From: an uncultured bacterium
GTDB taxonomy: Bacteria; Krumholzibacteriota; Krumholzibacteriia; Krumholzibacteriales; Krumholzibacteriaceae
DNA length: 64,000 nt
Direction: 5' to 3'
Assembly: GCA_965371515.1 (NCBI GenBank)
Contig: CBDUYR010000008.1
Span: 8,592-72,591, forward strand
The notes below the pieces were generated by a model that saw only the letters and a program-made list of their open reading frames with translations, searched no databases and was not told the DNA's origin. Position numbers and translations under genes: made by a program. This document shows, in pieces, positions 44,588-64,000 of the stretch. How positions within the stretch are numbered: the first letter of the stretch is position 1; every line of letters starts with the position of its first letter.

Positions 44588-45022
44588 ATGAATAACAAGG
44601 GTTTCACCCTTATCGAGCTGATGATCGTTGTGGTCATCATCGGTATCCTCGCTGCTATCGCTATCCCGAACTTCATCAACATGCAGGCCAGGGCCAAGGA
44701 AGCCTCCGTCAAGTCGAACTGCCACACTGTGCAGCTCGCTGCCGAGGACTTCGCGGTCCAGAACGATGGCGTTTATGCGGCTAACGTCGGTGTCGACGCC
44801 GCTCCGAACGGTGACTCGATCAGTGATATGCTCCCTGGTGGAATACTTCTCGAGAACCCTTTCACCAAGGGCGTTACTGAGCCGGTCGACGTTACTGCTG
44901 CGACTTCCGGTCAGACGGGCTACGTGCCTGTCGTCCTGAACCTCGTCAACATTGGCTATACGATTACCGGTTGCGGTAAGGACGCTGGCTTCCTGGTCAT
45001 CACGCTGACGAGTGGTCAGTAG
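44588..45022 (+). CDS. pilA: Type IVa major pilin
   Basis: Class III signal MNNKG|FTLIELMIVVVIIGILAAIAIPNF; strong AGGAGGT ribosome-binding site; own promoter and terminator. Confidence 0.95.
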   Translation: MNNKGFTLIELMIVVVIIGILAAIAIPNFINMQARAKEASVKSNCHTVQLAAEDFAVQNDGVYAANVGVDAAPNGDSISDMLPGGILLENPFTKGVTEPVDVTAATSGQTGYVPVVLNLVNIGYTITGCGKDAGFLVITLTSGQ

Positions 45023-45046
45023 AGCTCGATAGACATCAAGTCGATC

Positions 45047-45080
45047 AAGGGGCGGCTCACGCGGGCCGCCCCTTTCTTTA
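45047..45080 (+). terminator. Intrinsic terminator after pilA
   Basis: AAGGGGCGGCTC-acgc-GGGCCGCCCCTT stem followed by TCTTTA. Confidence 0.85.
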
Positions 45081-45088
45081 TGCCCGGT

Positions 45089-45104
45089 CGGTACGGAATC
45101 TGCA
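45089..45104 (+). promoter_or_regulatory. sigma54-like motif upstream of the ABC module (distal)
   Basis: CGGTACGGAATCTGCA: GG-N10-GC. Confidence 0.4.
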
Positions 45105-45160
45105 ACCTCTTACAGAAGAAGGATATTCAGGGTCCGGGTGTCCGGATACAGGGCGGCCGG

Positions 45161-45175
45161 TGGTACGTTTTCTGC
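45161..45175 (+). promoter_or_regulatory. sigma54-like motif upstream of the ABC module (proximal)
   Basis: TGGTACGTTTTCTGC: GG-N10-GC, ending 27 nt before ATG 45203. Confidence 0.55.
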
Positions 45176-45202
45176 CGGTTAAGGCAGTAAAGGGGCAGGA
45201 AT

Positions 45203-46195
45203 ATGGAAGTTCTACAGGTCGACGGGGTGAAGAAATCGTTCCGGGGGGACATGTCGTTTACCTCGCGCGAGATCCTTCACGGCGTCTCATTCTCGGCGGG
45301 CACAGGCGAGATACTCGGATTTCTCGGCCCGAACGGCGCGGGCAAGACGACCACTATAAAGATAATCCTCAACCTTCTCAGGCCTGATTCAGGCTCGGTT
45401 CAGATATTCGGAAAAACTCTCGGAAACAGGTCGGTCATGAAGAAGGTCGGATATCTTCCCGAGAATCCCTATATCTATCCTCACCTGACACTGAGTGAAT
45501 TCCTCCGCTTCTGCGCCGATCTCAGCGATGTACCGGTGAAAGAGGTCGCATCGAGGGTCAGGAAGGCCATCTCGCTCCTCGGGCTCGAGGAGCACGCGAA
45601 CAGGAGGACGAAGGGATTCTCGAAGGGGATGCTCCAGAGGGCCGGGATCGCGCAGGCGATCCTCCACGACCCCGATCTCCTGATCCTCGACGAGCCTTTC
45701 TCCGGTCTCGATCCGATCGGCAGGAAGACAGTGAAGGATATCCTTATCGATCTGAAGGGCAGGGGAAAGACGATCTTCTTCTCATCGCATATTCTTCCCG
45801 ATATGGAGGCTCTCTGTGACAGGGCATGCATCATCAAGGACGGAATAGTGATCAGGACAGTCGGCCTGGCCGACGTCTTTCGGATGGGCGAAGGGATGGT
45901 GGAGATAACCGCCAGGGGATGCCTCGTCTCCGAGCTTGAGCCAGTATCCAGGTACATGGATACGGTTGCCGTCAACGGTGAGGAGATATTCCTCGTCGTG
46001 AAGAAACGGGAACTTGTCCGCACCGTCGTTCAGCATCTCTACAACCGCGGCGCGGAAGTGCTCAATGTCTCAAACCATCATCCGTCGCTCGAGGACGTGT
46101 TCCTGGACGAGATTAACGAAAAAAGAACGGAAGAGAGGAAAGGCGCGGAGAAGAAGCATTACGCCGGCCACGCGACAGGGGGTGGCAAGCAGTGA
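45203..46195 (+). CDS. ABC transporter ATP-binding protein (Myxococcus PilH-like, pilus-associated)
   Basis: GPNGAGKTT, FSKGMLQR, LILDEPFSGLDP, FSSH; directly after pilA. Confidence 0.9.
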   Translation: MEVLQVDGVKKSFRGDMSFTSREILHGVSFSAGTGEILGFLGPNGAGKTTTIKIILNLLRPDSGSVQIFGKTLGNRSVMKKVGYLPENPYIYPHLTLSEFLRFCADLSDVPVKEVASRVRKAISLLGLEEHANRRTKGFSKGMLQRAGIAQAILHDPDLLILDEPFSGLDPIGRKTVKDILIDLKGRGKTIFFSSHILPDMEALCDRACIIKDGIVIRTVGLADVFRMGEGMVEITARGCLVSELEPVSRYMDTVAVNGEEIFLVVKKRELVRTVVQHLYNRGAEVLNVSNHHPSLEDVFLDEINEKRTEERKGAEKKHYAGHATGGGKQ

Positions 46196-46962
46196 GAAGG
46201 ATATACAGCGTCGCGCTGAATACGTTCAGGGAATCTGTAAGGGAGAAGCTGCTCTACCTTGTTATCATATACGCGATGATCCTGCTCGTCAGCGTCTTCA
46301 TCCTGTCGCCCCTCTCGGTCGGAGTGGCGAAGGGGAAGATCGTGACCGATGTCGGGCTGGCCGGAATCTCGATACTGGGGATCCTGACGGCAATAATCGT
46401 AGGCAGCAATCTAGTTCACAAGGAAGTGGACAAGAAGGCCGTCCTGATGGTGCTTGCCAGACCGGTGTCGCGTGCCGAGTATGTCATCGGAAAATTCGCC
46501 GGCGTCTCGCTGTCTCTGGCGGTCCTCATCGGGCTCATGACGGCCGTGCTCGTCGTGATGATGCTTCTCGGGGGTGCCGCGCTGACTCCGGCGGTATTCC
46601 TGGCAGTCGGCCTGTCCATCGTCGAGATAGGGCTGATAATAGCCGTGATGATATTCTTCAGCACCTTCACGACGCCCATTCTGACGTCTTTTTTCACTAT
46701 CTGCATATTTGTCGCCGGTACGTTGAGCGGCGACCTGAGGCTCTTTGCGCAGAAGTTCGGCGGGAAAGCGATGAACTATGTGATGGACATATTGTATTTC
46801 ACGCTTCCGAACCTGAAGGTTTTCAATCTCCGTCATGAAGCGGTACACGGGCTGAGGTACTCGGCATCCGAGATCCTTCTGCCTGCGGCGTATGGAATAG
46901 TATATACGTGCGCCATGCTCTATTTCGCCTGGCTGGTATTCAGGCGGAGGGAGTTCAGCTGA
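46192..46962 (+). CDS. ABC transporter permease (PilI-like)
   Basis: About six TM segments; ALNTFRESVR, KEVDKK, ARPVSRAEYVIGKF, FRRREF; overlaps the ATPase stop codon. Confidence 0.85.
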   Translation: MRRIYSVALNTFRESVREKLLYLVIIYAMILLVSVFILSPLSVGVAKGKIVTDVGLAGISILGILTAIIVGSNLVHKEVDKKAVLMVLARPVSRAEYVIGKFAGVSLSLAVLIGLMTAVLVVMMLLGGAALTPAVFLAVGLSIVEIGLIIAVMIFFSTFTTPILTSFFTICIFVAGTLSGDLRLFAQKFGGKAMNYVMDILYFTLPNLKVFNLRHEAVHGLRYSASEILLPAAYGIVYTCAMLYFAWLVFRRREFS

Positions 46963-46963
46963 G

Positions 46964-47644
46964 ATGATCCGGATGCTTGCCAGGATATTCTTTTTTGCAG
47001 TCGCTATCTCCGCGATCGTCGGAACCGCGATGATGGTCGAGCCTGTTCTGGATGGCAAAGCCGAGATCGAAGTCTCCTACCTGCCCACGAGCGATTTCAT
47101 GAAAATGGCCTCTCTCGGTTACAGGGAACTTGCCGCCGATCTCTACTGGTTCAGGGCGGTGCAGTACTACGGTGGTTACAGGCTCAACCAGAACGACATC
47201 CACCTGTTCAATCATCTTGCCGAGATGATAACCGATCTTGATCCTCATTTCATCGGCGCCTACAAGCTCAGTGCCCTGGTGATCACGGAGGACCTGGGGA
47301 ATTTCGCCGCGGCAAAAAATCTTATGGATAAGGGACTTAAGCACAACCCCTATGATTACTGGCTCACTTTCGAGATGGGATTGCTCCACTACCTCGAGGG
47401 CAGGGATTACAGCGAGGCGGAGAAGTATTTCCGCGTCGCCGCCACGCTGCCCAATTCTGACGGTAACAGGGCGGCCAGGTTCGCCGCCGAAGCGGCTTCG
47501 AAGGGCGGAAACGTCGAGGCGAGCATCATCCTGTGGAAAGAGATGGCGGAGAACTCGGACAACAGATACATACGCGAGCTGGCGGAAAAATATATCGCCA
47601 GACTCGAGGCGAGAAGGCAGCAGCAGGACAGGGGCAGCGTATGA
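46964..47644 (+). CDS. Membrane-anchored TPR-like accessory protein (Myxococcus PilG-like)
   Basis: N-terminal TM; LGYRELAADLYWFRAVQYYG; ITDLDPHF; TPR-like helices; lies within the pilus ABC module. Confidence 0.6.
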   Translation: MIRMLARIFFFAVAISAIVGTAMMVEPVLDGKAEIEVSYLPTSDFMKMASLGYRELAADLYWFRAVQYYGGYRLNQNDIHLFNHLAEMITDLDPHFIGAYKLSALVITEDLGNFAAAKNLMDKGLKHNPYDYWLTFEMGLLHYLEGRDYSEAEKYFRVAATLPNSDGNRAARFAAEAASKGGNVEASIILWKEMAENSDNRYIRELAEKYIARLEARRQQQDRGSV

Positions 47645-48405
47645 ATTGGATAGTGGACATACCAGTCTTCATATTCGGCCTTATGGCAGGGAGCTTTCTC
47701 AACGTGGTCATCTATCGGCTGCCGCTGGGCAGATCTGTGGTCAGGCCCAGGTCGTTCTGCCCCGGATGTGGAAAGACGATCTCCTGGTACGAGAACATCC
47801 CCGTTCTCAGTTATGTCATTCTGCGCGGCAATTGCCGCCGCTGCGGCGTTTCGATCTCTCCGCGCTATCCGGTGGTCGAAGTGCTCGGGGGCCTGCTCGC
47901 CGTTCTGGCCGTGTATCTCCACGGCGACTGGATCAATGTCGCTTTCACTTACGCGTTCCTGATGGCGCTGCTCGCGATAACGATGATCGACTGGGACCAC
48001 AGGATCATTCCCGACCAGATCAGCCTCTCCTTTATTGTGGTCGGGCTCGCATGGAGCTTTTTCAATCCGGGTCTCAGCCTGATCTCGTCGGTGGCGGGAG
48101 CGCTCGCCGGCGGCGGCAGCCTCTGGCTCGTTGGTATCCTCTACAGGAAGATGAGGAAAGCCGAGGGGATGGGTGGAGGCGACGTCAAACTGATGGCGAT
48201 GATCGGGGCCTTTCTCGGAATCAGCCTGGTTCTGCCCGTGATAGTGATCGCCTCTTTCTTCGGTTCGGTATACGGCATCTCCCTGATGCGCAGGGGCGGT
48301 GACGGCCGGATGGCTGTCGCCTTCGGCTCGTTTCTGGCACCGGCAGCCGCATTTTGCATGATATTCGGCTCGACTCTGCTTGCCTGGTATTTCGGACGGT
48401 TCTGA
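47641..48405 (+). CDS. pilD: Prepilin peptidase / N-methyltransferase
   Basis: Start at ATG 47641 (overlaps the upstream stop). GSFLNVVIYRLP, SFCPGC...NIPVLSY..LRGNCRRC, IDWDHRIIPD, GMGGGDVKL, AFGSFL. Confidence 0.95.
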   Translation: MNWIVDIPVFIFGLMAGSFLNVVIYRLPLGRSVVRPRSFCPGCGKTISWYENIPVLSYVILRGNCRRCGVSISPRYPVVEVLGGLLAVLAVYLHGDWINVAFTYAFLMALLAITMIDWDHRIIPDQISLSFIVVGLAWSFFNPGLSLISSVAGALAGGGSLWLVGILYRKMRKAEGMGGGDVKLMAMIGAFLGISLVLPVIVIASFFGSVYGISLMRRGGDGRMAVAFGSFLAPAAAFCMIFGSTLLAWYFGRF

Positions 48406-48647
48406 TTCCATAATACATTTTCAGCGACTTTTTTTAACGTCTCCAGAAGTGCCTTTCCTTCCGGATTGGAGTGCTTCATGGCCGTTAATGACTCCACGTC
48501 CATTAAAGTTGACAGGAATATCCCCTGATTCTGGCGAATTGCATGGATTTATTGCAGATACTGTGGGCGCAGCCGTCAGCGTCCGGGATATCGGTTTGTA
48601 AGCACGTAGTAATACTGGAGTTGAATGATGCCGGGGTATCGATACGT

Positions 48648-48662
48648 TGGCACATTTGTTGC
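48648..48662 (+). promoter_or_regulatory. sigma54 (-24/-12) promoter upstream of pilM
   Basis: TGGCACATTTGTTGC: essentially consensus GG-N10-GC, in a 390-bp intergenic region. Confidence 0.8.
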
Positions 48663-48795
48663 GTTATCGAGCTCTCGAGGAAGGAATTATTGAATTATCT
48701 CAATCGGTTACGGCGCTTCAAATGCGTCGGCAAGGGGTGACAGGCGCGGTCCTGGACCACTCCATTGAGAGGAATTTTAAAAGGCTGGTGCGAGA

Positions 48796-49917
48796 ATGAT
48801 CTCATTACCATTTCTGAGCAAGAAATCCTCGACTGTCGGACTCGACATCGGGTCGAGCCTGATCAAGATCGTCGAGATCGATTACTCCGGCGGCTCGCCG
48901 AAGATCGTCAATTTCGGCTGCACGAGGCTCCTGCCCGAGGCAATCGTCGAGGGCGAGATCATGGACAGGGGGCTGGTGATCGACGGGATCAGGGAGTGCG
49001 TCGAACAGTCGGGGATAACGACCGACAATGTCGTGTCGGCTGTTTCGGGCCGTGCGGTCATCGTCAAGAAGGTCGTCATGGACAAGATGACCCCGGAGGA
49101 CGCGCAGGAGGCGATCTACTGGGAAGCCGAGCAGCACGTGCCGTTCGATATCGACGACGTCTGCCTCGATTTCCAGATTCTAAATGACGACATCGGGGCT
49201 AACCAGATGGAGGTCCTGCTGGTCGCTGCCAAGAAGGACATGGTAACTGTCCACGCCAGCCTGATAAGGGACGCCGGTCTATCCCCGACGATTATCGACG
49301 TCGATTCGTTTGCCGTCCAGAACTGCTTCGAGGCGAGCAGGAATGCCGGCAGCTTCGGCGATTCGGACGGGGACGATGATTTCGACGATCGTCATTCTGG
49401 CGGCAGCCGGAAGGCGATCGGCCTGATCAACATCGGAAGCGATGTTACCAACATCAACATTATACAGGGAGACAGTCCCCAGTTCACGAGGGACATCAGT
49501 GTCGGCACGGACCAGTTCGTCGAATCCATGCAGAAGGAACTCGGTCTTGATTACGAGGCGGCCCAGAATGTAGTCCACGGGGAGATCGGGGAACTGGACG
49601 GTTCGAAGATAAGGGAGATCATAAAGAAGCGCTCCGACGACCTCTCACTCGGCATCGAGCGCAGCCTTTCTTTCCTGAAGGCTGCAGGAGACGCCGATAC
49701 TATAGACGAGGTTGCTCTGAGTGGAGGAGGGGCGCACATACCTTACCTCAAGGAGATCCTTTCGGAAAGGCACGGAATGGAATTCTCCATACACAATCCT
49801 CTCGACGGCGTCGAATGGGATGAAGGCGTATTCGGCGAATACGAAGAAGACCTCGACAGCCTGGCGCCGCTGCTGACTGTCGGCATCGGTCTCGCTCTTA
49901 GAAAGGCGGGCAAGTAA
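48796..49917 (+). CDS. pilM: Type IV pilus alignment protein PilM
   Basis: VGLDIGSSLIKIVE, EAEQHVPFDIDDV, VLLVAAKK, DVDSFA, INIGS, LSGGGA, GIGLALR. Confidence 0.95.
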   Translation: MISLPFLSKKSSTVGLDIGSSLIKIVEIDYSGGSPKIVNFGCTRLLPEAIVEGEIMDRGLVIDGIRECVEQSGITTDNVVSAVSGRAVIVKKVVMDKMTPEDAQEAIYWEAEQHVPFDIDDVCLDFQILNDDIGANQMEVLLVAAKKDMVTVHASLIRDAGLSPTIIDVDSFAVQNCFEASRNAGSFGDSDGDDDFDDRHSGGSRKAIGLINIGSDVTNINIIQGDSPQFTRDISVGTDQFVESMQKELGLDYEAAQNVVHGEIGELDGSKIREIIKKRSDDLSLGIERSLSFLKAAGDADTIDEVALSGGGAHIPYLKEILSERHGMEFSIHNPLDGVEWDEGVFGEYEEDLDSLAPLLTVGIGLALRKAGK

Positions 49918-50471
49918 TGATACGGATAAATCTTCTTCCAGCGGAAGACAGGACCAAGAAGAAGGAACTGCATCTTCCCGAGATGTCGACTGTGTACCTG
50001 GTTGTGGCGATTGTGGTTTTTGTCGCCTCGATAGCCGTGAGCAGCACTATTCAGCGGCACAGGGTCAGGAGTCTCGAAAAGAAGATCGAGGTGGCGAAGG
50101 AGGAGGCCAGAAAGCTTGCTCCTCAGCTGGCCAAGATCAAGCAGATAACTAAGGAGCGTGAGGAAGTCAACAAGAGACTCAACCTTATCACTTCGCTCGA
50201 CAGACACAGGTATTACAGGGTGAAGCTTCTCAACGATATCAGCTACAAGCTGCCGGCAAACTGCTGGCTGACCGATATCGTCGAGCTTTCCCCGAACAAT
50301 TTCACCATAGATGGAATAACGTTTTCCAATTTCACCGTCGCCGACATGATCTCCAATCTGGAGAATTCGCCGCTCGTGACTAGCGTCGATCTCAAGATCG
50401 CGGAGCGGGGGCAGATCAAGAAGCGTGAAGTGATGAAATTCAGCATGAGCGCTAACGTCATGCCTCAGTAG
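49917..50471 (+). CDS. pilN: Type IV pilus alignment protein PilN
   Basis: MIRINLLP motif, single TM, coiled coil, PANCWL. Confidence 0.92.
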   Translation: MIRINLLPAEDRTKKKELHLPEMSTVYLVVAIVVFVASIAVSSTIQRHRVRSLEKKIEVAKEEARKLAPQLAKIKQITKEREEVNKRLNLITSLDRHRYYRVKLLNDISYKLPANCWLTDIVELSPNNFTIDGITFSNFTVADMISNLENSPLVTSVDLKIAERGQIKKREVMKFSMSANVMPQ

Positions 50472-50488
50472 GGAAGAGAGGAAATGGA

Positions 50489-51097
50489 ATGGATTTCAAG
50501 GATCCCAATGTACAGAAGACGATTGTTGTGGGGATACTCCTCGTCATAGTCGGCTACGTATACTTTTTCACGTCTTTCATGCCTTTCTTCTTCCAGCCGC
50601 TGAAGGCGCACGTCAACACGCTCGATTCGGAGTATGACAAGATAAGCGCAGAGCTGGAGAAGGCCAGGAAGACCGTGAACAGTCTGGCCAGACTCGAGGA
50701 GGAGTACGAGCGGCTTCACGATAAGTGGATGGCCGCCCAGAGCCTCCTGCCCCAGGAGAATGAAGTAGCGCAGCTGCTCCGCAAGGTGACTCGTGCGGGA
50801 AGCCAGTCCGGCGTCCAGTTCGATCTCTTCGAGCCGCAGATCCCTGTCACGGGAGAATTCATAACCGAGAATCCCGTGAAGGTGAAGATCCGGGGTGAGT
50901 ATCACGAGGTCGGCGTATTCCTGTCGAAGGTGGCGAACCTCGACAGGATCATCAACGTGACCGGCCTGAAGGTCAGGCCTTACAAGGACAAGGAAAATGC
51001 AGGCGGATTTACCGTCGAAGCAGAGATGATTATGACCGCGTTCACGATGAACAAAAGTGGGGAGGTGACAGATGAGAGCGTCAAGAAGAGTTCATAA
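50489..51097 (+). CDS. pilO: Type IV pilus alignment protein PilO
   Basis: TM plus coiled coil; LLPQENEVAQLL; GEYHEVGVFLSKVANLDRIINV. Confidence 0.92.
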   Translation: MDFKDPNVQKTIVVGILLVIVGYVYFFTSFMPFFFQPLKAHVNTLDSEYDKISAELEKARKTVNSLARLEEEYERLHDKWMAAQSLLPQENEVAQLLRKVTRAGSQSGVQFDLFEPQIPVTGEFITENPVKVKIRGEYHEVGVFLSKVANLDRIINVTGLKVRPYKDKENAGGFTVEAEMIMTAFTMNKSGEVTDESVKKSS

Positions 51098-51539
51098 GAA
51101 AGCCTGGAAAGCAATCTGGGCGTTTACGGGCGCCGCTCTTCTCCTTTCCGCTTTACCGCTTTACCCGGTCCTCGCACAGGACGGAAAGACGGTGGAAGGC
51201 AAGATCATCCGCGAGAAGAGGTATTATTACCAGGCGTTCAACCGGAGAGATCCCTTCCAGAGCCTCATCGTCGGAGAATATGAGCAGTCCGAATTCGAGC
51301 TCGTCGATATCAACGGAGTGAGACTCGTCGGAGTCCTTTCCGGCGGTATGGAAAAGTTCGCGATGCTCGAGGACAGCAATGGATTTGCTTACATCCTCAA
51401 GGCCGGCGATCCGGTCCGTAACGGAAGCGTTGTTTCCGTTGGCAACCGGACGCTGGTGGCGAGGATCTCGATGTTCGGACAGACGACCAGTGTAACCCTC
51501 AATATAGAGGGCAGCAGTAAGAACAAAGGAGAATCATGA
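51072..51539 (+). CDS. pilP: PilP-like pilus assembly protein
   Basis: Between pilO and pilQ; YYQAFNRRDPF; RLVGVL; AMLEDSNGFAYILKAGD; GGAGG ribosome-binding site; no lipobox Cys seen. Confidence 0.75.
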   Translation: MRASRRVHKKAWKAIWAFTGAALLLSALPLYPVLAQDGKTVEGKIIREKRYYYQAFNRRDPFQSLIVGEYEQSEFELVDINGVRLVGVLSGGMEKFAMLEDSNGFAYILKAGDPVRNGSVVSVGNRTLVARISMFGQTTSVTLNIEGSSKNKGES

Positions 51540-53461
51540 TGATGAGCATCCGCAGATTCGCCCTGGTAATCATCGCGGGTCTTGTCCTGCCCGGTCTCGG
51601 TCTCGCCGCTGTGTCGGAGATCAACGGCGTTAAGGTCGTTCCCGAGGGTGAAAAGGTCAGGCTCGAGATAAGTAAGGTCGGGGACATTCAGTTCAAGGCC
51701 TTCACTATGAGCGATCCTGACAGGCTCGTAGTGGATTGCTTCGGTGCAATGTACGACGTGCGAAGCGTCAACGACTATCCCGAGAATGGAATAGTCCGCA
51801 ATGTCAGAACGAGTCAGTATCAGAACGAACCCACGCTGATCAGCCGGGTCGTTGTCGACCTGAAGACTAAGGTCGACTGGAAGATATACGAAAACGGCGA
51901 CTACCAGATCGTGGAGATGTCGCCCCGGGGTACGGTCAGGACCGCTTCGGCCGATGCCGCCCCGATCCTCGAGGTAAAGCCGGTCGCAAAACCGGAACCT
52001 GCCGAGCCGAAACACATCCCGGTCGCCGCGGCCGAGATGGGTCCGGTACTGCCGATGACAATTCCGGAGAAGAAAACGGACACCGTGCAGCAGCCGGTCA
52101 CCGTGCAGCAGCCGGTCATCGTGCAGCAGACCGAGGAAAAACAGGAAGAGCCCGAGGAAGATGATCCCTGGGTGAAGGTCGAGCCGGTCGAGATCAAGAA
52201 CGAGATCAACTCGGCTCCAGCCAGGGCTGCCAGGATGACAACCGACTGGACACAGAACTACGTGCGCGGCGCTCCCGCCGCTGGCGGCGGCCTGGCCATG
52301 GGTAAGCGCAAGATCACGCTGGACGCGCAGGGCGCTGACATCAAGACGGTACTCCGCACCATCTCGGACTTTGCAGGCGTAAACATCGTCTCGGGCAAGG
52401 ACGTCGAGGGCGATGTATACGTCCATATCAAGGACACACCGTGGGAAGAGGCGCTCGACATCCTTCTGAAGGCGTATGGTTACGGCTTCCGCGAGGAGTT
52501 CGGCATGATCAGGGTTGCCGAGAAGCAGTCCCTGATGAAAGAGGAGCTTGACGAGAAGACGGCCGAGAGGAAGAAGGACGAACTTCTGCCCCTCGTCACC
52601 AAGATCATCTTTGTCAACAACTCGAATGCCGAGGAGATGCGTATAGCGCTGGAGAATATCGTGAGCCAGCGCGGAATGATCGCTGTCGACGAGGGAAGCA
52701 ACTCGCTGATCGTCAACGACATCGAGAAGAATATCGTGAAGATCGAGGGAATGGTACGCGAGCTCGACAAGAAGACCTACCAGGTCGATATCAACGCCAA
52801 GCTAGTCGAGATCGACGTCGAGGCTTCCAGGGAGCTCGGTATCGACTGGGCCGTCATGAACCTCGCATCGTCCACTCTGGACGGAACGGGAAGCGCCGAA
52901 GTCACGGCGAATATCCCGATGTCGGCCGCCAAGCTGACATACGGGACCGTTCAGTCCTGGGGTGAGTTCGCCGCCATCTTCAAGGCTCTCGAGAAGGAAA
53001 ACAAGGCGCACCTGATTTCCAACCCGCGGATCACCACAATGGACAACCGCGAGGCGAGCATTCTGGTCGGTAAGGAGATTCCACTCATCGTAGCGGATGA
53101 GGCTGGAAACCCGATCACAGAGCTCACCAAGATCGGTATCATGCTGAGGGTCACCCCTCACGTGAATTCCGACAGGACCATCACTCTCGATCTGCATCCC
53201 GAAGTCAGTGACCTCCAGTCCGAGGCTACCGCCCAGGGCGGAGTTATCATTACCACCTCCGAGGCCGATACCAGGGTTATAGTCGACAACGGAGCGACGG
53301 CTGTGATCGGTGGACTGATGAAGGAGATCGAAAGCGAGTACGTGAGTGGAGTTCCCATTCTCAAGGACATTCCGGGGATCGGCTGGTTCTTCTCTTCGAA
53401 GTCGAAGGTAAGCAAGCAGCAGGAACTCGTGATATTTGTGACACCGACGATAGTGGAATAA
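51536..53461 (+). CDS. pilQ: Type IV pilus secretin PilQ with an N-terminal AMIN domain
   Basis: AMIN domain (FTMSDPDRLVVD...VRTSQY...RVVVDL); ITLDAQGADIKTVL; PWEEALD; NPRITTMDN; VTPHV; VPILKDIP; ELVIFVTPTI. Confidence 0.95.
   Translation: MMMSIRRFALVIIAGLVLPGLGLAAVSEINGVKVVPEGEKVRLEISKVGDIQFKAFTMSDPDRLVVDCFGAMYDVRSVNDYPENGIVRNVRTSQYQNEPTLISRVVVDLKTKVDWKIYENGDYQIVEMSPRGTVRTASADAAPILEVKPVAKPEPAEPKHIPVAAAEMGPVLPMTIPEKKTDTVQQPVTVQQPVIVQQTEEKQEEPEEDDPWVKVEPVEIKNEINSAPARAARMTTDWTQNYVRGAPAAGGGLAMGKRKITLDAQGADIKTVLRTISDFAGVNIVSGKDVEGDVYVHIKDTPWEEALDILLKAYGYGFREEFGMIRVAEKQSLMKEELDEKTAERKKDELLPLVTKIIFVNNSNAEEMRIALENIVSQRGMIAVDEGSNSLIVNDIEKNIVKIEGMVRELDKKTYQVDINAKLVEIDVEASRELGIDWAVMNLASSTLDGTGSAEVTANIPMSAAKLTYGTVQSWGEFAAIFKALEKENKAHLISNPRITTMDNREASILVGKEIPLIVADEAGNPITELTKIGIMLRVTPHVNSDRTITLDLHPEVSDLQSEATAQGGVIITTSEADTRVIVDNGATAVIGGLMKEIESEYVSGVPILKDIPGIGWFFSSKSKVSKQQELVIFVTPTIVE
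52082..52129 (+). repeat. In-frame 18-bp tandem repeat in the pilQ linker
   Basis: ACCGTGCAGCAGCCGGTC twice plus a partial ATCGTGCAGCAG (TVQQPV-TVQQPV-IVQQ). Confidence 0.85.
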
Positions 53462-58247: not shown

Positions 58248-59492
58248 CTACTCCGGATCGCTGATCGCACCCATGAACAGTATCAGCCCTGTATTGTCAT
58301 CGACGATCGCGATGAGGAAGGGCCTGTCGACGACCATGTGGAATGGATCCACAACGGGCATTGCCGATGTGAGCCGGATCGTGATCGCCGTCGCGGCGGC
58401 GGCCTCGGTGCCTTTCTCGTTCACCTCTATGACTGCCTTATGCAGGACGTCGCTTATGTAGACATCGCCCGGTCCGCATTCGCAGAGGTTCGAGAAATCG
58501 GCGCTGCGGCTGAAGGCATCCTTCATCCCCATGCCCGAGAGTGTTCCGTTGAGTCTCGAGAAGTACTCCGCCTTGAATCGCGGCATCTCGATCGTGCCGT
58601 CGCGCTCCGCAAGGGTGCCGGTCCACGTCTTCCAGTCTTTGAGAGCAAGTTTTCCGATAAGGTCTGCGAGCGTGTTTTCCCCGGAGGGGAGGAAGACGTA
58701 CATCGAGGTCCCGCCTCCGGAGGGCCCGTCATCCGATGCGTTCTTGCCGTATGGCAGTCTCACAGCCTGAAAGAGTTCGTTCTCGTGACAGTCGAGCTTT
58801 CCGGAACGTTTCATCATCGGGACCGATTTTTTACCCTTCGGCGAGTGGAAAGGCCTTTCTTCCGTGAGATCCTTGTCGAATTCGACCGTCCATTCGCCTT
58901 TGAAATAGATCGCGTTGACGAGGATCGCGACGTCGTCCGGATCGACCGAATCGATAATAGAGGGGATCATCCCCTCCGTCCGCTCCTCGACCCACCTGTT
59001 GATCTCCTTCTCCGTCTCGAGCAGGCAGACGCCGGCGTTGAAATGCTTCTCGTTCCTGCTTACGAATTCCTTCCTGAAGGGGAAGCCCTCCCTGAGCCAT
59101 AGAGAGTTGGCGATCGACAGGGTGATCCCCGTACCCGTCTCGGACAGATGGTCGACGAGCAGCCCGTTGGCCCCGTTGTAAGCGCTCAGCTCCATCGACC
59201 CGGCACCGAGAAGGCGGGCCATCTCAGCGGCTGTAGTGCCGCCGGCGCCGTTGTATGCCATGCCGAGGCAGAGAGCCACGCTGACGGGGGAGACGAACAC
59301 GTTGTCCCCATCGCTGCCGGCCGCTTCGCGGGTGAAGAGATCGACGCCGAACCGGTTGTAACCTTCGAGCAGCGGCCCCGCGCTCGCGGGCTCCGTCCCG
59401 GATTCGTCAGTCCCGGCGCACGCGAACGACTGGGTGAGGCAGAAAAGGACTAGAAAGAACAGTGGAACAGTTCTGAAGATGCGTTTCATCAT
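58248..59492 (-). CDS. Serpin (serine protease inhibitor), exported
   Basis: Signal peptide; NVFVSPVS, YNGAGGTT, INRWVEERTEGMI, LVNAIYFKGEW, MPRFK; hinge EVNEKGTEAAAAT; VDRPFL...ILFMG. Confidence 0.95.
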   Translation of the reverse strand: MMKRIFRTVPLFFLVLFCLTQSFACAGTDESGTEPASAGPLLEGYNRFGVDLFTREAAGSDGDNVFVSPVSVALCLGMAYNGAGGTTAAEMARLLGAGSMELSAYNGANGLLVDHLSETGTGITLSIANSLWLREGFPFRKEFVSRNEKHFNAGVCLLETEKEINRWVEERTEGMIPSIIDSVDPDDVAILVNAIYFKGEWTVEFDKDLTEERPFHSPKGKKSVPMMKRSGKLDCHENELFQAVRLPYGKNASDDGPSGGGTSMYVFLPSGENTLADLIGKLALKDWKTWTGTLAERDGTIEMPRFKAEYFSRLNGTLSGMGMKDAFSRSADFSNLCECGPGDVYISDVLHKAVIEVNEKGTEAAAATAITIRLTSAMPVVDPFHMVVDRPFLIAIVDDNTGLILFMGAISDPE

Positions 59493-61085: not shown

Positions 61086-62453
61086 TTGGATTTCAGGAAC
61101 CTTTTCGAGCCGAAGACGATGGCGGTTATCGGATTGTCGCTGAGCAACGAACGCCATCCGGCTAACATCATCTACAACAAGAACTACTTTCGTTACCCGG
61201 TGAAGGTGTACGGCGTGAACCCGAAGGGCGGGACGTACCACAAGGAAAAGATCTACACGTCGATCTCGGAGATCCCCGAGAAGATCGACCTGGCGGTAAT
61301 CGCCGTGCGGGCCGAGTACGTTTCCGGCGTTCTGAGGGATTGCATCGACAGCTGGGTCGGCGGGGCCGCCGTAATATCGGGCGGGTTCGCCGAGACGGGG
61401 AGGCTCGACCTGAGGCGGCAGTTCGAAGAGATCGCCGCCGAGGCCGATTTTCCCATCATCGGCCCCAACTGTCTCGGGATCTACTCCCCGGGCGAGGTCG
61501 ACTCCCTCTTTCTGCCGAGCGAGAGGATGGTCAGGCCCGAGCAGGGGAACGTGGCGCTCGTCAGCCAGAGCGGCGGAATACTGGTCGACCAGATGGTCAA
61601 GTTCGCCGGGCAGGGAATCGGGCTCTCGAGGGCGGTCAGCATCGGCAACAAGGCTGCTGTCGGGGAGCTCGAACTGCTCAAGTACCTCGCGAGGGACGAA
61701 AAGACAGATGTGATCGCCTTCTATATCGAGGGATTCGGCCCGGGTGAGGGGAGGGAGTTCGTGACTGCGGCAGCGAGGTGCCCCAAGCCCGTGATTATCA
61801 TGAAGGCCGGCAAGAGCGCCGGGGGAAGCCGTGCCGTGTCGAGCCACACCGCCTCGATTGCGGGGGACTACGCTGTTTTTTCATCCGTGATGCGTCAGTT
61901 CGGGATCGTCGAGGCGAAGGACGAGTTCGAGATGGTCTCGTTCTGCGAATCGCTCAGCTGCTACAGCAGGGGAATCGACGGCAGGGTCGGCATCGTGACG
62001 GCGAGCGGAGGGCACGGCGCCGTGGCGGTCGACACGTGCGAGGCGTCGGGACTTGTGGTGCCGCAGTTCTCCGAAGAGATCCAGGAGAAGCTACGCGGGC
62101 GTCTCTCTCAAAGCGTCCAGCCGATCGCCTCACTGGGTAACCCGATTGACCTTACCGGAAGCGCACGGGACGACGATTTCGTCATCTCGGCCAGTGAGCT
62201 GAGCAGGCTTCCCGACATCGACTGCGTGATCATCCTCCTGCTGCCCTACATACCCGAGGTCACATCGGACGTGGGCGCGAGGCTGAGCCAGGTCTACCAT
62301 GAGGAGGGGAAGCCGATAGTGGCGTATGTCCCGCACGTCGAAAAGTACAGGATGATCATAGAGGGATTCCAGCTCAACAACGTTCCCGTCTCTCACTCTA
62401 TCGAGGGAGCGATCCTGATGGTTGAGGCGATGAAGAGGTGCAAGCCATGCTGA
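61086..62453 (+). CDS. ADP-forming acyl-CoA (acetate-CoA) ligase, alpha subunit
   Basis: CoA-binding domain (VNPKG, IDLAVIAV, GGFAETG, IIGPNCLG), SQSGG, SIGNKA, phospho-His region AVSSHTASIAG, NPIDLTG. Confidence 0.88.
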   Translation: MDFRNLFEPKTMAVIGLSLSNERHPANIIYNKNYFRYPVKVYGVNPKGGTYHKEKIYTSISEIPEKIDLAVIAVRAEYVSGVLRDCIDSWVGGAAVISGGFAETGRLDLRRQFEEIAAEADFPIIGPNCLGIYSPGEVDSLFLPSERMVRPEQGNVALVSQSGGILVDQMVKFAGQGIGLSRAVSIGNKAAVGELELLKYLARDEKTDVIAFYIEGFGPGEGREFVTAAARCPKPVIIMKAGKSAGGSRAVSSHTASIAGDYAVFSSVMRQFGIVEAKDEFEMVSFCESLSCYSRGIDGRVGIVTASGGHGAVAVDTCEASGLVVPQFSEEIQEKLRGRLSQSVQPIASLGNPIDLTGSARDDDFVISASELSRLPDIDCVIILLLPYIPEVTSDVGARLSQVYHEEGKPIVAYVPHVEKYRMIIEGFQLNNVPVSHSIEGAILMVEAMKRCKPC

Positions 62454-63139
62454 GTGAAACAGCTGCCGCTGTCCTTGAGGAATCGAAGAAACGAGGCTGG
62501 GTCCTCGAACCCGACGCGAAGCGTCTCTTCGCCGACGCCGGATTCGATGTTCCCGTCTCGGAGCAGGTACGCTCGGAAGACGAGGCCGTCGCGGCGGGAG
62601 AGCGGATCGGCTGGCCCGTGGTGGCGAAGGTCGTCTCGCCCGACGTTATTCACAAGTCGGAAGCAGGTGGCGTCGCCGTTGGGATAGACGGACCCGGGGC
62701 GATGCGTGAGGTGTTCGCTCGCCTGAGTAATATCGATGGGTGCGAAGGCGTTCTTGTCGAGGAGATGCTGCCCGGGATCGAGCTGATCATAGGCGGCAAG
62801 ATCGACGGGCAGTTCGGGCCCGTGGTGCTTGCCGGGATTGGTGGAGTCGGCGTCGAGATTTACAAGGACACGGCGATAAGGATGGCTCCGATCGAGGAAA
62901 AAGACGTTGCCTCGATGCTCAACGACATCGTGGCAGGCAGCATCCTGCGCGGCTACCGCGGCTCGGCGGGAGTGAACCTGGAGGAACTGAAGAAGTTGAT
63001 AGCAGGTTTCTCCAGCCTGATCGTCGAGATGGCGGACCTCGTCGAATCGGTCGATCTCAATCCGGTTCTCTGTACGGAGGAAAGATGCGTCATCGCCGAC
63101 GCGAGAATAATCCTTAAAAAAAACGACAAATGCAGTTGA
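62447..63139 (+). CDS. ADP-forming acyl-CoA ligase, beta (ATP-grasp) subunit
   Basis: Probable ATG 62447 overlapping the alpha-subunit end; IGWPVVAKVVSPDVIHKSEAGGV, ELIIGG..DGQFGPVV, LRGYRG, DLNPV, ADARI. Confidence 0.88.
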   Translation: MLSETAAAVLEESKKRGWVLEPDAKRLFADAGFDVPVSEQVRSEDEAVAAGERIGWPVVAKVVSPDVIHKSEAGGVAVGIDGPGAMREVFARLSNIDGCEGVLVEEMLPGIELIIGGKIDGQFGPVVLAGIGGVGVEIYKDTAIRMAPIEEKDVASMLNDIVAGSILRGYRGSAGVNLEELKKLIAGFSSLIVEMADLVESVDLNPVLCTEERCVIADARIILKKNDKCS

Positions 63140-63165
63140 CAAGGCAAATGGAAGCGGTTTAGGCT
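63136..63165 (+). promoter_or_regulatory. sigma70-type promoter of the histone gene
   Basis: Perfect TTGACA (63136-63141), 18 nt, TAGGCT (63160-63165). Confidence 0.6.
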
Positions 63166-63233
63166 TCGTTCAGGTAAACAGGTAAGCAACTCGTCTCAAA
63201 GTCTGTCAAGCGACAGAAAGAAGGAGGTACAAG

Positions 63234-63410
63234 ATGGCAGAGACTTACGTTTACGCTTCGAGGATCAAGGAACTGGCCAAGAAGTTCGGTCTCAGGATGA
63301 GCGGGGACGCAGCCGACGCCCTTAACGCGCAGATCGCTGAGATGGTCAAGGCCGCTGCCGATAGGGCGAAGGGTAACAAGCGCAAGACTATCTACCCGTT
63401 CGACTTCTAG
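63234..63410 (+). CDS. Bacterial histone-fold protein, 58 aa
   Basis: Below the ORF track cutoff. MAETYVYASRIKELAKKFGLRMSGDAADALNAQIAEMVKAAADRAKGNKRKTIYPFDF: alpha1, L1 'RMS', long alpha2, L2 RKTIxxxD histone signature. AGGAGGT ribosome-binding site, promoter and terminator. Confidence 0.9.
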   Translation: MAETYVYASRIKELAKKFGLRMSGDAADALNAQIAEMVKAAADRAKGNKRKTIYPFDF

Positions 63411-63435
63411 AGCCTGCGCGCCAGTATTTGATATC

Positions 63436-63470
63436 AAGGGGCGGCCGCTTGTCGGTCGCCCTTCTCTTTG
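63436..63470 (+). terminator. Intrinsic terminator after the histone gene
   Basis: GGGCGGCCG-cttgt-CGGTCGCCC stem followed by TTCTCTTTG; lies between convergent genes. Confidence 0.8.
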
Positions 63471-63475
63471 TGCAG

Positions 63476-64000
63476 TCACAGTCGGTTCTTAGGCATGAAT
63501 CCCTCAAGCATATGAAGCTGCCAGAGGTCACGGCTGTTCCAGCGGAGCAAAGGATGCAGCGCGAGCTTTCCGGTAATGCCTATGCGCCCCTCGAGGTATT
63601 TGAGCTCACTGAACATGTCCTCGACGTCGGGGTCGGGGGGAGGCTCGAAATCATTCTCCCGCATCAGGAGGATTCCCTTTGCCCTTATAGACAGCTCGAT
63701 GTGCAGGCGCAGGTAGCAGAGCATATCGGCCACTGTCTCGCCCGGGAAGGTCCGTTTGAGTGAGATGAGATATTCACCGACAGGCGTACTCGCAATGTCG
63801 CCTGAGGTTATCATCTCCAGCATCTGTTGGTCAGAGTCGAAGCCGATACCGAGCCATCTGCGGAGCGTACGCTCGCTCTGACGAAATACGAGCATCATCA
63901 CCAGGGGGACGCCGATCAGCAGTGCGAGGAGCGTGACGCGCAGGGAGATGAAGAAATGGTTGAAGAGAGAGTGTATCAGGACAGCCATCAGGAAGGCGGG
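63476..64000 (-). CDS. PrsW family intramembrane metalloprotease, C-terminal part (5' end outside the window)
   Basis: Frame open to the window edge; AVLIHSLFN resembles the PrsW HxxxN motif and is followed by a TM segment and a soluble tail. Confidence 0.55.
   Translation of the reverse strand, partial: PAFLMAVLIHSLFNHFFISLRVTLLALLIGVPLVMMLVFRQSERTLRRWLGIGFDSDQQMLEMITSGDIASTPVGEYLISLKRTFPGETVADMLCYLRLHIELSIRAKGILLMRENDFEPPPDPDVEDMFSELKYLEGRIGITGKLALHPLLRWNSRDLWQLHMLEGFMPKNRL

What the first reader, a model, noticed from the sequence alone, without database searches (positions are those of the whole stretch)
63136..63470. Unannotated bacterial histone in its own transcription unit
Seen: a 58-aa basic ORF missed by the track, MAETYVYASRIKELAKKFGLRMSGDAADALNAQIAEMVKAAADRAKGNKRKTIYPFDF, with a TTGACA promoter, a small leader hairpin (TCTGTC/GACAGA, 63202-63217), a strong Shine-Dalgarno site and its own terminator. 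Established: RKTIxxxD after a long alpha2 helix, with R-x-S in loop 1, is the histone-fold signature of archaeal HMf and bacterial histones such as Bdellovibrio Bd0055. Ending one residue after the Asp leaves alpha3 truncated, as in the non-nucleosomal 'face-to-face' class. Inference: an abundant histone-based chromatin protein in a little-studied phylum; the aromatic tail YPFDF and N-terminal YVY are unusual and may define the oligomer interface.
Basis: partly seen in the sequence, partly recalled or inferred. Interest (0 to 1): 0.85.

Follow-up and report, generated by a model that had tools for sequence, protein, structure and literature searches.

The report
Re-acquired face-to-face bacterial histone
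This small gene of an uncultured Krumholzibacteriota bacterium encodes a histone-fold protein with every sequence mark of the known "face-to-face" class, predicted to form a four-part ring that wraps DNA; the family is known, and the new detail is that this branch likely took the gene from another lineage after its order had lost the phylum's own histone.

Summary
Observation confirmed. The 58-aa ORF (63234-63410, +) is a real gene under purifying selection (pN 0.02-0.05 against pS 0.30-0.42). Its model has the alpha3-truncated histone fold, nearest to HLp of Leptospira (Z 8.9, rmsd 0.8 A). It keeps the face-to-face (FtF) tetramer residues R44, N48, R50 and a C-terminal F58, so it is an HLp/HTkC-type histone, not a Bd0055 dimer. 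Its alpha2 is short, not long. Tetramer and DNA wrapping are inferred from homologues; the complex predictor was unavailable. The family is described, and this scan has already found FtF histones on other DNA, including a 56-aa one in this phylum.

The added point is distribution. 130 of 144 genomes in five other families of the phylum carry a histone, and each of those families has a 56-aa type. In the window's order only 8 of 52 genomes have one; they form one nested clade and carry a different 58-aa type. Loss followed by re-acquisition fits best, but an AU test (p 0.113) does not exclude common descent, and no donor was found. HU/IHF genes are kept. New member of a known kind.

The parts
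63136..63141 (+). -35-like box TTGACA, overlapping the stop codon (63137-63139) of the upstream ATP-grasp gene
   Evidence: sequence; invariant in 8 of 8 loci; promoter function inferred
63160..63165 (+). -10-like box TAGGCT, 18 nt after the -35 box
   Evidence: 3 of 6 to consensus, not listed by the scan; TAG(G/T)CT at the same spacing in 8 of 8 loci
63166..63233 (+). conserved 5' region (leader); start of transcription presumed near 63172
   Evidence: promoter plus leader differ at 8-10% of sites against pS 0.24-0.68 in the neighbouring gene; no Rfam match
63202..63217 (+). small inverted repeat (T)CTGTC-N4-GACAG(A); RNA hairpin or protein-binding site, not told apart
   Evidence: core invariant and loop variable in 7 of 7 genus members; folding z -0.74; 10 copies in the genome, as at neighbouring spacings
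63221..63228 (+). Shine-Dalgarno site AAGGAGGT
   Evidence: sequence; AAGGAGG invariant in 8 of 8 loci; top 0.3% pairing energy in a crude genome-wide set
63234..63410 (+). 58-aa face-to-face (alpha3-truncated) histone gene: alpha1 8-17, alpha2 24-47, alpha3 55-57; R44, N48, R50-K-T52, D57, F58
   Evidence: single copy in the genome
63437..63472 (+). intrinsic-terminator-like hairpin (11 pairs) with a pyrimidine-rich tail
   Evidence: hairpin kept in 6 of 6 loci despite sequence changes
62438..63139 (+). context: ATP-grasp subunit of an NDP-forming acyl-CoA synthetase, fixed upstream neighbour in all 8 carrier genomes; no functional link shown
   Evidence: PF13549; synteny
63476..64000 (-). 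context: 3' part of a convergent gene of no assigned family, cut by the contig end
   Evidence: no family hit; neighbour in 7 of 8 carrier genomes

Best explanation
The ORF encodes a 58-residue alpha3-truncated histone with the face-to-face signature, which likely pairs into dimers and closes into a ring-shaped tetramer predicted to wrap about 60 bp of DNA without sequence preference, and which was probably acquired by gene transfer into one branch of its order. Shown here: the gene, its selection, the fold of the monomer model, the signature residues and the distribution. Inferred from HLp and HTkC: antiparallel alpha2 helices make the dimer; R44 and N48 contact the C-terminal F58 and R50 of the opposing dimer, which uses up both tetramer faces so no hypernucleosome can grow; A8-S9-R10, K12, K16, G24 and K51-T52 form a basic belt on the phosphate backbone. 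It would act beside, not instead of, the three HU/IHF proteins. The conserved promoter-like boxes, strong ribosome-binding site and terminator suggest steady, fairly high expression from its own short mRNA.
For: Best PDB sequence match is HLp (E 4.6e-8, ungapped over 56 residues), then HTkC (5e-4) and Bd0055 (3e-3); same order with a profile. Model pLDDT 85.7, helices 8-17, 24-47, 55-57. The three best of 48,161 chains are HLp, HBb and HTkC at Z 8.9, 8.3, 8.2; the next is 6.3. HLp's tetramer residues R49, N53, R55, F63 map to R44, N48, R50, F58. The equivalent Arg is needed for the HTkC tetramer (R45A is a dimer). Of 9 HLp DNA-contact residues 6 are identical and 1 is Lys-to-Arg. Purifying selection. 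One RNA contig of run X1 matches 63216-63355 with no mismatch. Transfer: 8 of 52 genomes of the order carry it and form one nested clade (99% SH-aLRT), while the 56-aa type of five other families forms a starred clade (97/94) that excludes it.
Against: No tetramer model and no DNA-binding test. The fold search cannot tell FtF from bacterial dimer (Z values within 1). Two HLp features are not kept: the S52/T61 pair is G47/F56, and the DNA contact T27 is M22. Pfam and NCBIfam scores are under their cut-offs. The expression evidence is one contig from one run found with this gene, and DNA in the library is not excluded. 25 of 31 near-complete genomes of the order gave no histone match, so it is not needed for the order's way of life. 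For transfer: the AU test did not reject joining it with the 56-aa type (p 0.113), the tree has only 58 columns, and no donor was found.
Confidence: 0.85

Rival explanations
1. It is a Bd0055/HBb-type bacterial dimer that bends or coats DNA and forms no stable tetramer; the clade-specific Y54 and F56 would block the ring interface.
For: HBb is tied with HLp in the fold search (Z 8.3 against 8.9). It has the RKT motif noted for bacterial dimers. G47/F56 replace HLp's S52/T61 hydrogen-bond pair.
Against: Bacterial dimers are described as lacking the Arg and Asn that this protein has (Bd0055 has Ser and Asp there). R44 and N48 are invariant in its clade. Position 56 varies widely among relatives that keep the signature. 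RKT also occurs in HTkC.
Confidence: 0.08
2. On origin only: the gene is the phylum's own ancestral histone, or an old paralogue, inherited vertically and lost many times in the rest of the order.
For: Histones are near-universal in five other families (130 of 144). The AU test does not reject a union with the 56-aa type (p 0.113). Other families carry second paralogues, and one genome of family f7 has a 58-aa type 49% identical. Draft genomes can miss small genes.
Against: It needs at least 3 independent losses on starred branches alone, and 5-7 on the drawn tree, against one loss and one gain. It lacks the 2-residue deletion that marks the 56-aa type. It shares 18-25 of 58 residues with that type but 28-29 with Gemmatimonadota histones. 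Four assemblies of 1 to 50 contigs gave no match even at E 0.1.
Confidence: 0.3
3. It is an FtF tetramer with a minor, conditional role (for example packing DNA in stationary phase or bridging DNA) and not a bulk chromatin protein.
For: HU/IHF number is 3 in all 6 carriers tested and mostly 3 in non-carriers, unlike Leptospira, which lacks HU. Close relatives lack the gene. Expression of FtF histones differs among organisms, and bridging by HLp in vivo is not excluded by its authors.
Against: Very strong ribosome-binding site, C-ending codons in 14 of 15 Phe/Tyr/Asn/Asp/Ile cases, pN as low as or lower than the neighbouring enzyme, and one of only three near-identical RNA pieces in 20 kb.
Confidence: 0.3
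4. It is a chance ORF or a contaminant contig.
For: Short, not called by the track, and below Pfam cut-offs.
Against: Same gene and neighbours in 8 genomes; pN far below pS; GC and GC3 typical of the genome; exact protein seen on 10 contigs.
Confidence: 0.01

Closest known systems
HLp, bacterial face-to-face histone of Leptospira perolatii (PDB 9QT0, 9QT1, 9QT2; PMC12701072)
   Same: Ungapped alignment over 56 residues, 39% identity, rmsd 0.8 A; R/N/R tetramer triad, RD clamp, terminal Phe; 7 of 9 DNA-contact residues identical or Lys-to-Arg.
   Different: No N-terminal tail; G47/F56 for S52/T61; more aromatic residues (6, where 100 of 104 relatives have 4 or fewer); host keeps three HU/IHF genes; different gene neighbours (acyl-CoA synthetase, not SMC).
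HTkC, archaeal face-to-face histone of Thermococcus kodakarensis (PDB 9F2C; PMC11390915; 10.64898/2025.12.06.692711)
   Same: Fold (Z 8.2, rmsd 0.9 A), tailless, the tetramer Arg, RKT-hydrophobic-Tyr in loop 2, coexistence with other chromatin proteins.
   Different: 32% identity; HTkC has a 2-residue longer loop 1, Glu for N48 and His for D57; archaeal host.
Bd0055/HBb, bacterial dimer histone of Bdellovibrio bacteriovorus (PDB 8FVX, 8CMP; PMC10627809)
   Same: alpha3-truncated fold (Z 8.3), short alpha2, S-K/R motif before alpha1, RKT motif.
   Different: Lacks R44 and N48; dimer that bends or coats DNA, not a wrapping tetramer.
The 56-aa FtF-type histone of other Krumholzibacteriota families
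   Same: Same phylum, same signature residues, small stand-alone gene.
   Different: 18-25 of 58 residues identical, 2-residue deletion after alpha1, separate starred clade, other gene neighbours.

Membership tests
Histone fold | three helices alpha1-L1-alpha2-L2-alpha3 | tested here: met
   model helices 8-17, 24-47, 55-57; the 23 best rows of the fold search are all histone-fold entries by their titles
alpha3 histones (PMC11390915) | alpha3 of 3-4 residues | tested here: met
   helix 55-57, chain ends at 58; definition
alpha3 histones (PMC11390915) | alpha2 4-5 residues shorter than in nucleosomal histones | tested here: met
   24-residue alpha2; ungapped to HLp; the 58-position profile spans 51-56 residues of HMf-type chains over 45-51 positions
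Face-to-face histones | conserved Arg and Asn at the end of alpha2 (HMM R48, N52; HLp R49, N53) | tested here: met
   R44 and N48, invariant in the clade
Face-to-face histones | RxTxxxxD motif and a free C-terminus one residue after the Asp | tested here: met
   R50-K-T52-I-Y-P-F-D57-F58-stop; 90 of 104 relatives end the same way
Face-to-face histones | conserved alpha1 lysine (HMM K16) and neighbouring basic residues | tested here: met
   R10, K12, K16 against HLp K15, K17, K21
Face-to-face histones | ring-shaped homotetramer, predicted or solved (the formal definition) | not testable with these tools
Face-to-face histones | non-specific wrapping of about 60 bp of DNA | not testable with these tools
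   needs EMSA, MNase and tethered-particle assays
Bacterial dimer histones (Bd0055/HBb) | absence of the FtF Arg and Asn | tested here: not met
   both present; Bd0055 has Ser and Asp
Nucleosomal archaeal histones (HMf) | long alpha2 and a 10-residue alpha3 | tested here: not met
   NF043032 scores 19 bits against a cut-off of 50
DUF1931 pseudodimeric histones | two folds in one chain; PF09123 above cut-off | tested here: not met
   single 58-aa fold; 14.7 bits against 21.8

The most novel reading that the evidence does not exclude
A bacterial order lost the histone that the rest of its phylum keeps, and one nested branch later regained a foreign face-to-face histone, placed it behind an acyl-CoA synthetase gene with its own conserved promoter and leader, and fixed it under strong selection on top of a full HU/IHF set. 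This gives matched relatives with the ancestral histone, with none, and with a replacement: a natural experiment on what a histone adds to a bacterial nucleoid.
Probability: 0.6. Interest if true: 0.45.

Novelty: new member of a known kind. Interest (0 to 1): 0.3.

Why it matters
Bacterial histones were recognised only recently, and in the papers read here HLp is the one bacterial face-to-face member studied at the bench. This gene adds a compact, tailless member from a phylum that the histone surveys searched here do not name. The survey made on the way shows that histones are the rule in that phylum (139 of 208 genomes after removing one false hit). The patchy pattern in this order suggests that bacterial histones can be dropped and taken up again like accessory nucleoid proteins. 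It does not reveal a new mechanism.

Tried and rejected
Tetramer prediction: not available, so no verdict. Promoter scan: no site at its threshold. Leader as a structured RNA: no Rfam match, folding no better than shuffles in 4 of 4 leaders (z -0.74 to +0.89), no second copy in the genome, and the inverted repeat no commoner at spacing 4 than at 3 or 5. Compensation between G47 and an aromatic residue at 56: not supported (Fisher p 0.34, 103 relatives). A phage carrier: no relative in the viral contigs with the single protein. A donor: none found; nearest named outside relatives are Gemmatimonadota, Nitrospirales, WOR-3 and Planctomycetota proteins with no supported sister branch. An 'empty site' test: the DNA after the ATP-grasp gene differs among the 23 non-carrier loci, so it shows only that no histone lies there. 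In family f4 the histone often precedes a gene whose counterpart in this genome has no histone before it, but that neighbourhood is not shared by f6 or f8. The weak hit in G022 (E 9e-4) lies antisense to another gene and was dropped. Histone replacing HU: rejected. The neighbour's dN/dS was computed out of frame and is replaced. Parts of the window without RNA cover in run X1 were not read as silent.

Full report
Observation. The ORF at 63234-63410 (+) gives the quoted 58 residues. It has 11 Lys/Arg and 7 Asp/Glu, pI 9.6, and is single-copy in a 3.08-Mb genome rated 99.6% complete. TTGACA is at 63136-63141 and TAGGCT follows after 18 nt. The scan listed no promoter because the second box matches 3 of 6, but both boxes and the spacing recur in 8 of 8 aligned loci. 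The hairpin at 63202-63217, the AAGGAGGT site at 63221-63228 and the terminator-like stem at 63437-63463 are present. No terminator-like site lies between the upstream acyl-CoA synthetase genes and the ORF, so read-through is possible.

It is a real gene. A word-based search gave 16 relatives of 16 candidates, 15 of them at 69-95% identity; one is named from Candidatus Krumholzibacteria and four are labelled 'histone H3/H4' by JGI. Record titles of the closest genomes name Krumholzibacteriota, or an uncultured bacterium, so the phylum is inferred from relatives. Against five genomes of the genus, pN is 0.022-0.051 and pS 0.295-0.423; the upstream enzyme has pN 0.034-0.136. Promoter plus leader differ at only 8-10% of sites. 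The copy in G006 has a frameshift, but both neighbours there are broken too, which points to assembly errors. One RNA run was listed; a contig of it covers 63216-63355 without mismatch. Over 20 kb, 28 pieces were laid and 3 were at least 99% alike: this one and two in the pilus-assembly-like genes at 49852-50344 (label recalled). This is weak support: one run, found with this gene, contigs only.

What it is. Pfam hits to Histone, CBFD_NFYB_HMF and DUF1931 are all under cut-off, which may be why such genes go unnamed. Among solved structures the best match is HLp (E 4.6e-8), then HTkC, then Bd0055; an 80-sequence profile gives the same order, with HMf-type histones over ten orders of magnitude weaker. 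The model (pLDDT 85.7) has helices 8-17, 24-47 and 55-57. Against 48,161 chains the top three are HLp (Z 8.9, rmsd 0.8 A, 56 residues), HBb (8.3) and HTkC (8.2); the fourth is at 6.3. The three are tied, so the fold fixes the alpha3 family and not the subclass.

The subclass rests on residues. FtF histones are defined by a ring tetramer with a conserved Arg and Asn at the end of alpha2, which bacterial dimers lack (PMC11390915, passages). In HLp the interface uses R49, S52, N53, R55, T61 and F63 (10.1101/2025.05.08.652872, section 25). With the offset of 5 from the structural alignment these are R44, G47, N48, R50, F56 and F58 here: four of six are identical, including all three called conserved. 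In HTkC the equivalent Arg binds the C-terminal carboxyl of the opposing dimer, and R45A is a dimer (10.64898/2025.12.06.692711, section 5). HLp's DNA contacts A13, S14, K15, K17, K21, T27, G29, T56, T57 (section 27) map to A8, S9, R10, K12, K16, M22, G24, K51, T52. Among the 104 of 149 distant representatives that are at most 100 aa long, 91 have R44, N48, R50, T52 and D57 together. I could not model the tetramer.

The aromatic residues. But position 54 is Met and position 56 is Val or Tyr in some close relatives, HTkC has the Tyr at 54, and G47 does not covary with an aromatic 56 (p 0.34). A role in the interface is untested.

How it likely works. Dimer through crossed alpha2 helices; two dimers locked face to face into a ring; about 60 bp wrapped round the basic rim, as reported for HLp (PMC12701072, passages). 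All of this is inferred from homology. Unlike Leptospira, this genome has three HU/IHF genes. All 33 genomes of the order tested have HU/IHF, 3 copies in all 6 carriers and 2-6 in the rest. The histone is thus an addition.

Distribution. A profile search of 208 genomes of the phylum matched 140. Five families outside the order score 130 of 144, family f7 1 of 12. In the order (52 genomes) the matches are the window's genome, 6 of 6 others of its genus, the single genome of genus g3, and one false hit. Of the order's 31 genomes at least 90% complete, 25 have no true match; this means not found in those searched. A tree of five ribosomal proteins for 41 of the 52 genomes (11 left out, most with a partial or missing locus) and 5 outgroups puts the 8 carriers in one clade (99), nested in clades of 18 (98), 35 (97) and 41 (100) genomes. 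All 8 have the gene behind the ATP-grasp gene. The common histone of the other families is a 56-aa type with a 2-residue deletion. In a 69-row tree, 21 such rows from five families and one Spirochaetales row form a starred clade (97/94) without the window's clade. Retention would need at least three losses on starred branches. Against this reading: only 58 columns, an open backbone, weak support for the window's own clade in that tree (91/79; 99), p-AU 0.113 for the union on a 46-row set, further paralogues in f6, f8 and f9, and no donor. I put loss plus re-acquisition at about 0.6-0.7.

What is in print. FtF histones are the largest alpha3 class, reported mainly from Spirochaetota, Planctomycetota, Bdellovibrionota and Myxococcota, and transfer of these genes is already proposed (PMC11390915). 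A search for 'Krumholzibacter' with 'histone' found 0 papers; related searches were (listings only). The name is absent from the readable supplements of PMC11390915 and PMC12701072. The supplementary PDF of PMC11390915 that holds its bacterial distribution figures could not be read and may show the phylum. PMC10627809 (passages) lists one Krumholzibacterium genome among those searched and nowhere else. Supplements of the bioRxiv papers were not seen. This scan has reported several FtF histones before, among them the 56-aa type of this phylum; no earlier finding matched this sequence or place.

Verdict. A real, conserved FtF-type histone gene; new member of a known kind; interest 0.3, carried mostly by the loss-and-regain pattern.

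Noticed in passing
proteins P0038-P0046, P0048, P0049 and others: About 38 of the 150 best distant hits match in two stretches; the seven printed (118-150 aa) are natural tandem fusions of two FtF-type folds, each half ending in an R..N.R.T....D-like motif. They fall in several places of the tree. No passage on such doublets was found in PMC11390915 with the words doublet, tandem or pseudodimer.
   Followed up: partly
L013, L021, L022, L151 (family f8); L141, L143, L148, L149 (families f6, f9): Several Krumholzibacteriota genomes carry a second, unrelated alpha3 histone. The f8 one has a Lys-rich stretch in frame before the fold; the f6/f9 one resembles Bd0055 in sequence (VVVSKxK...GRKTVMDRDF) yet has Asn or Lys, not Arg, at the position of R44.
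   Followed up: partly
L017 (G052:C32:770-940): The only histone match among 12 genomes of family f7 is a 58-aa type, 49% identical to the window's and unlike the 56-aa type: possibly a second, separate acquisition.
   Followed up: partly
L132: A Spirochaetales genome carries a histone that falls inside the Krumholzibacteriota 56-aa clade: transfer out of the phylum or mis-binning.
   Followed up: no
window 63187-63198 and 63220-63229: The leader stretch CTCGTCTC is invariant in 7 of 7 genus members and pairs weakly with the Shine-Dalgarno site in the lowest-energy folds; a possible handle for translational control, with no covariation to support it.
   Followed up: partly
L008/L012 (G006:C1 near 1956111-1956285): The histone gene and both neighbours carry frameshifts in this 6-contig assembly; likely sequencing indels.
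   Followed up: partly
window 44588-53461: Type IV pilus-like cluster (pilin, ABC transporter, prepilin peptidase, PilM/N/O/P/Q-like genes; labels recalled from the translations); two near-identical RNA pieces of run X1 lie in it.
   Followed up: no
window 58248-59492 (-): A serpin-like ORF with a signal peptide and lipobox-like Cys (label recalled from the translation).
   Followed up: no
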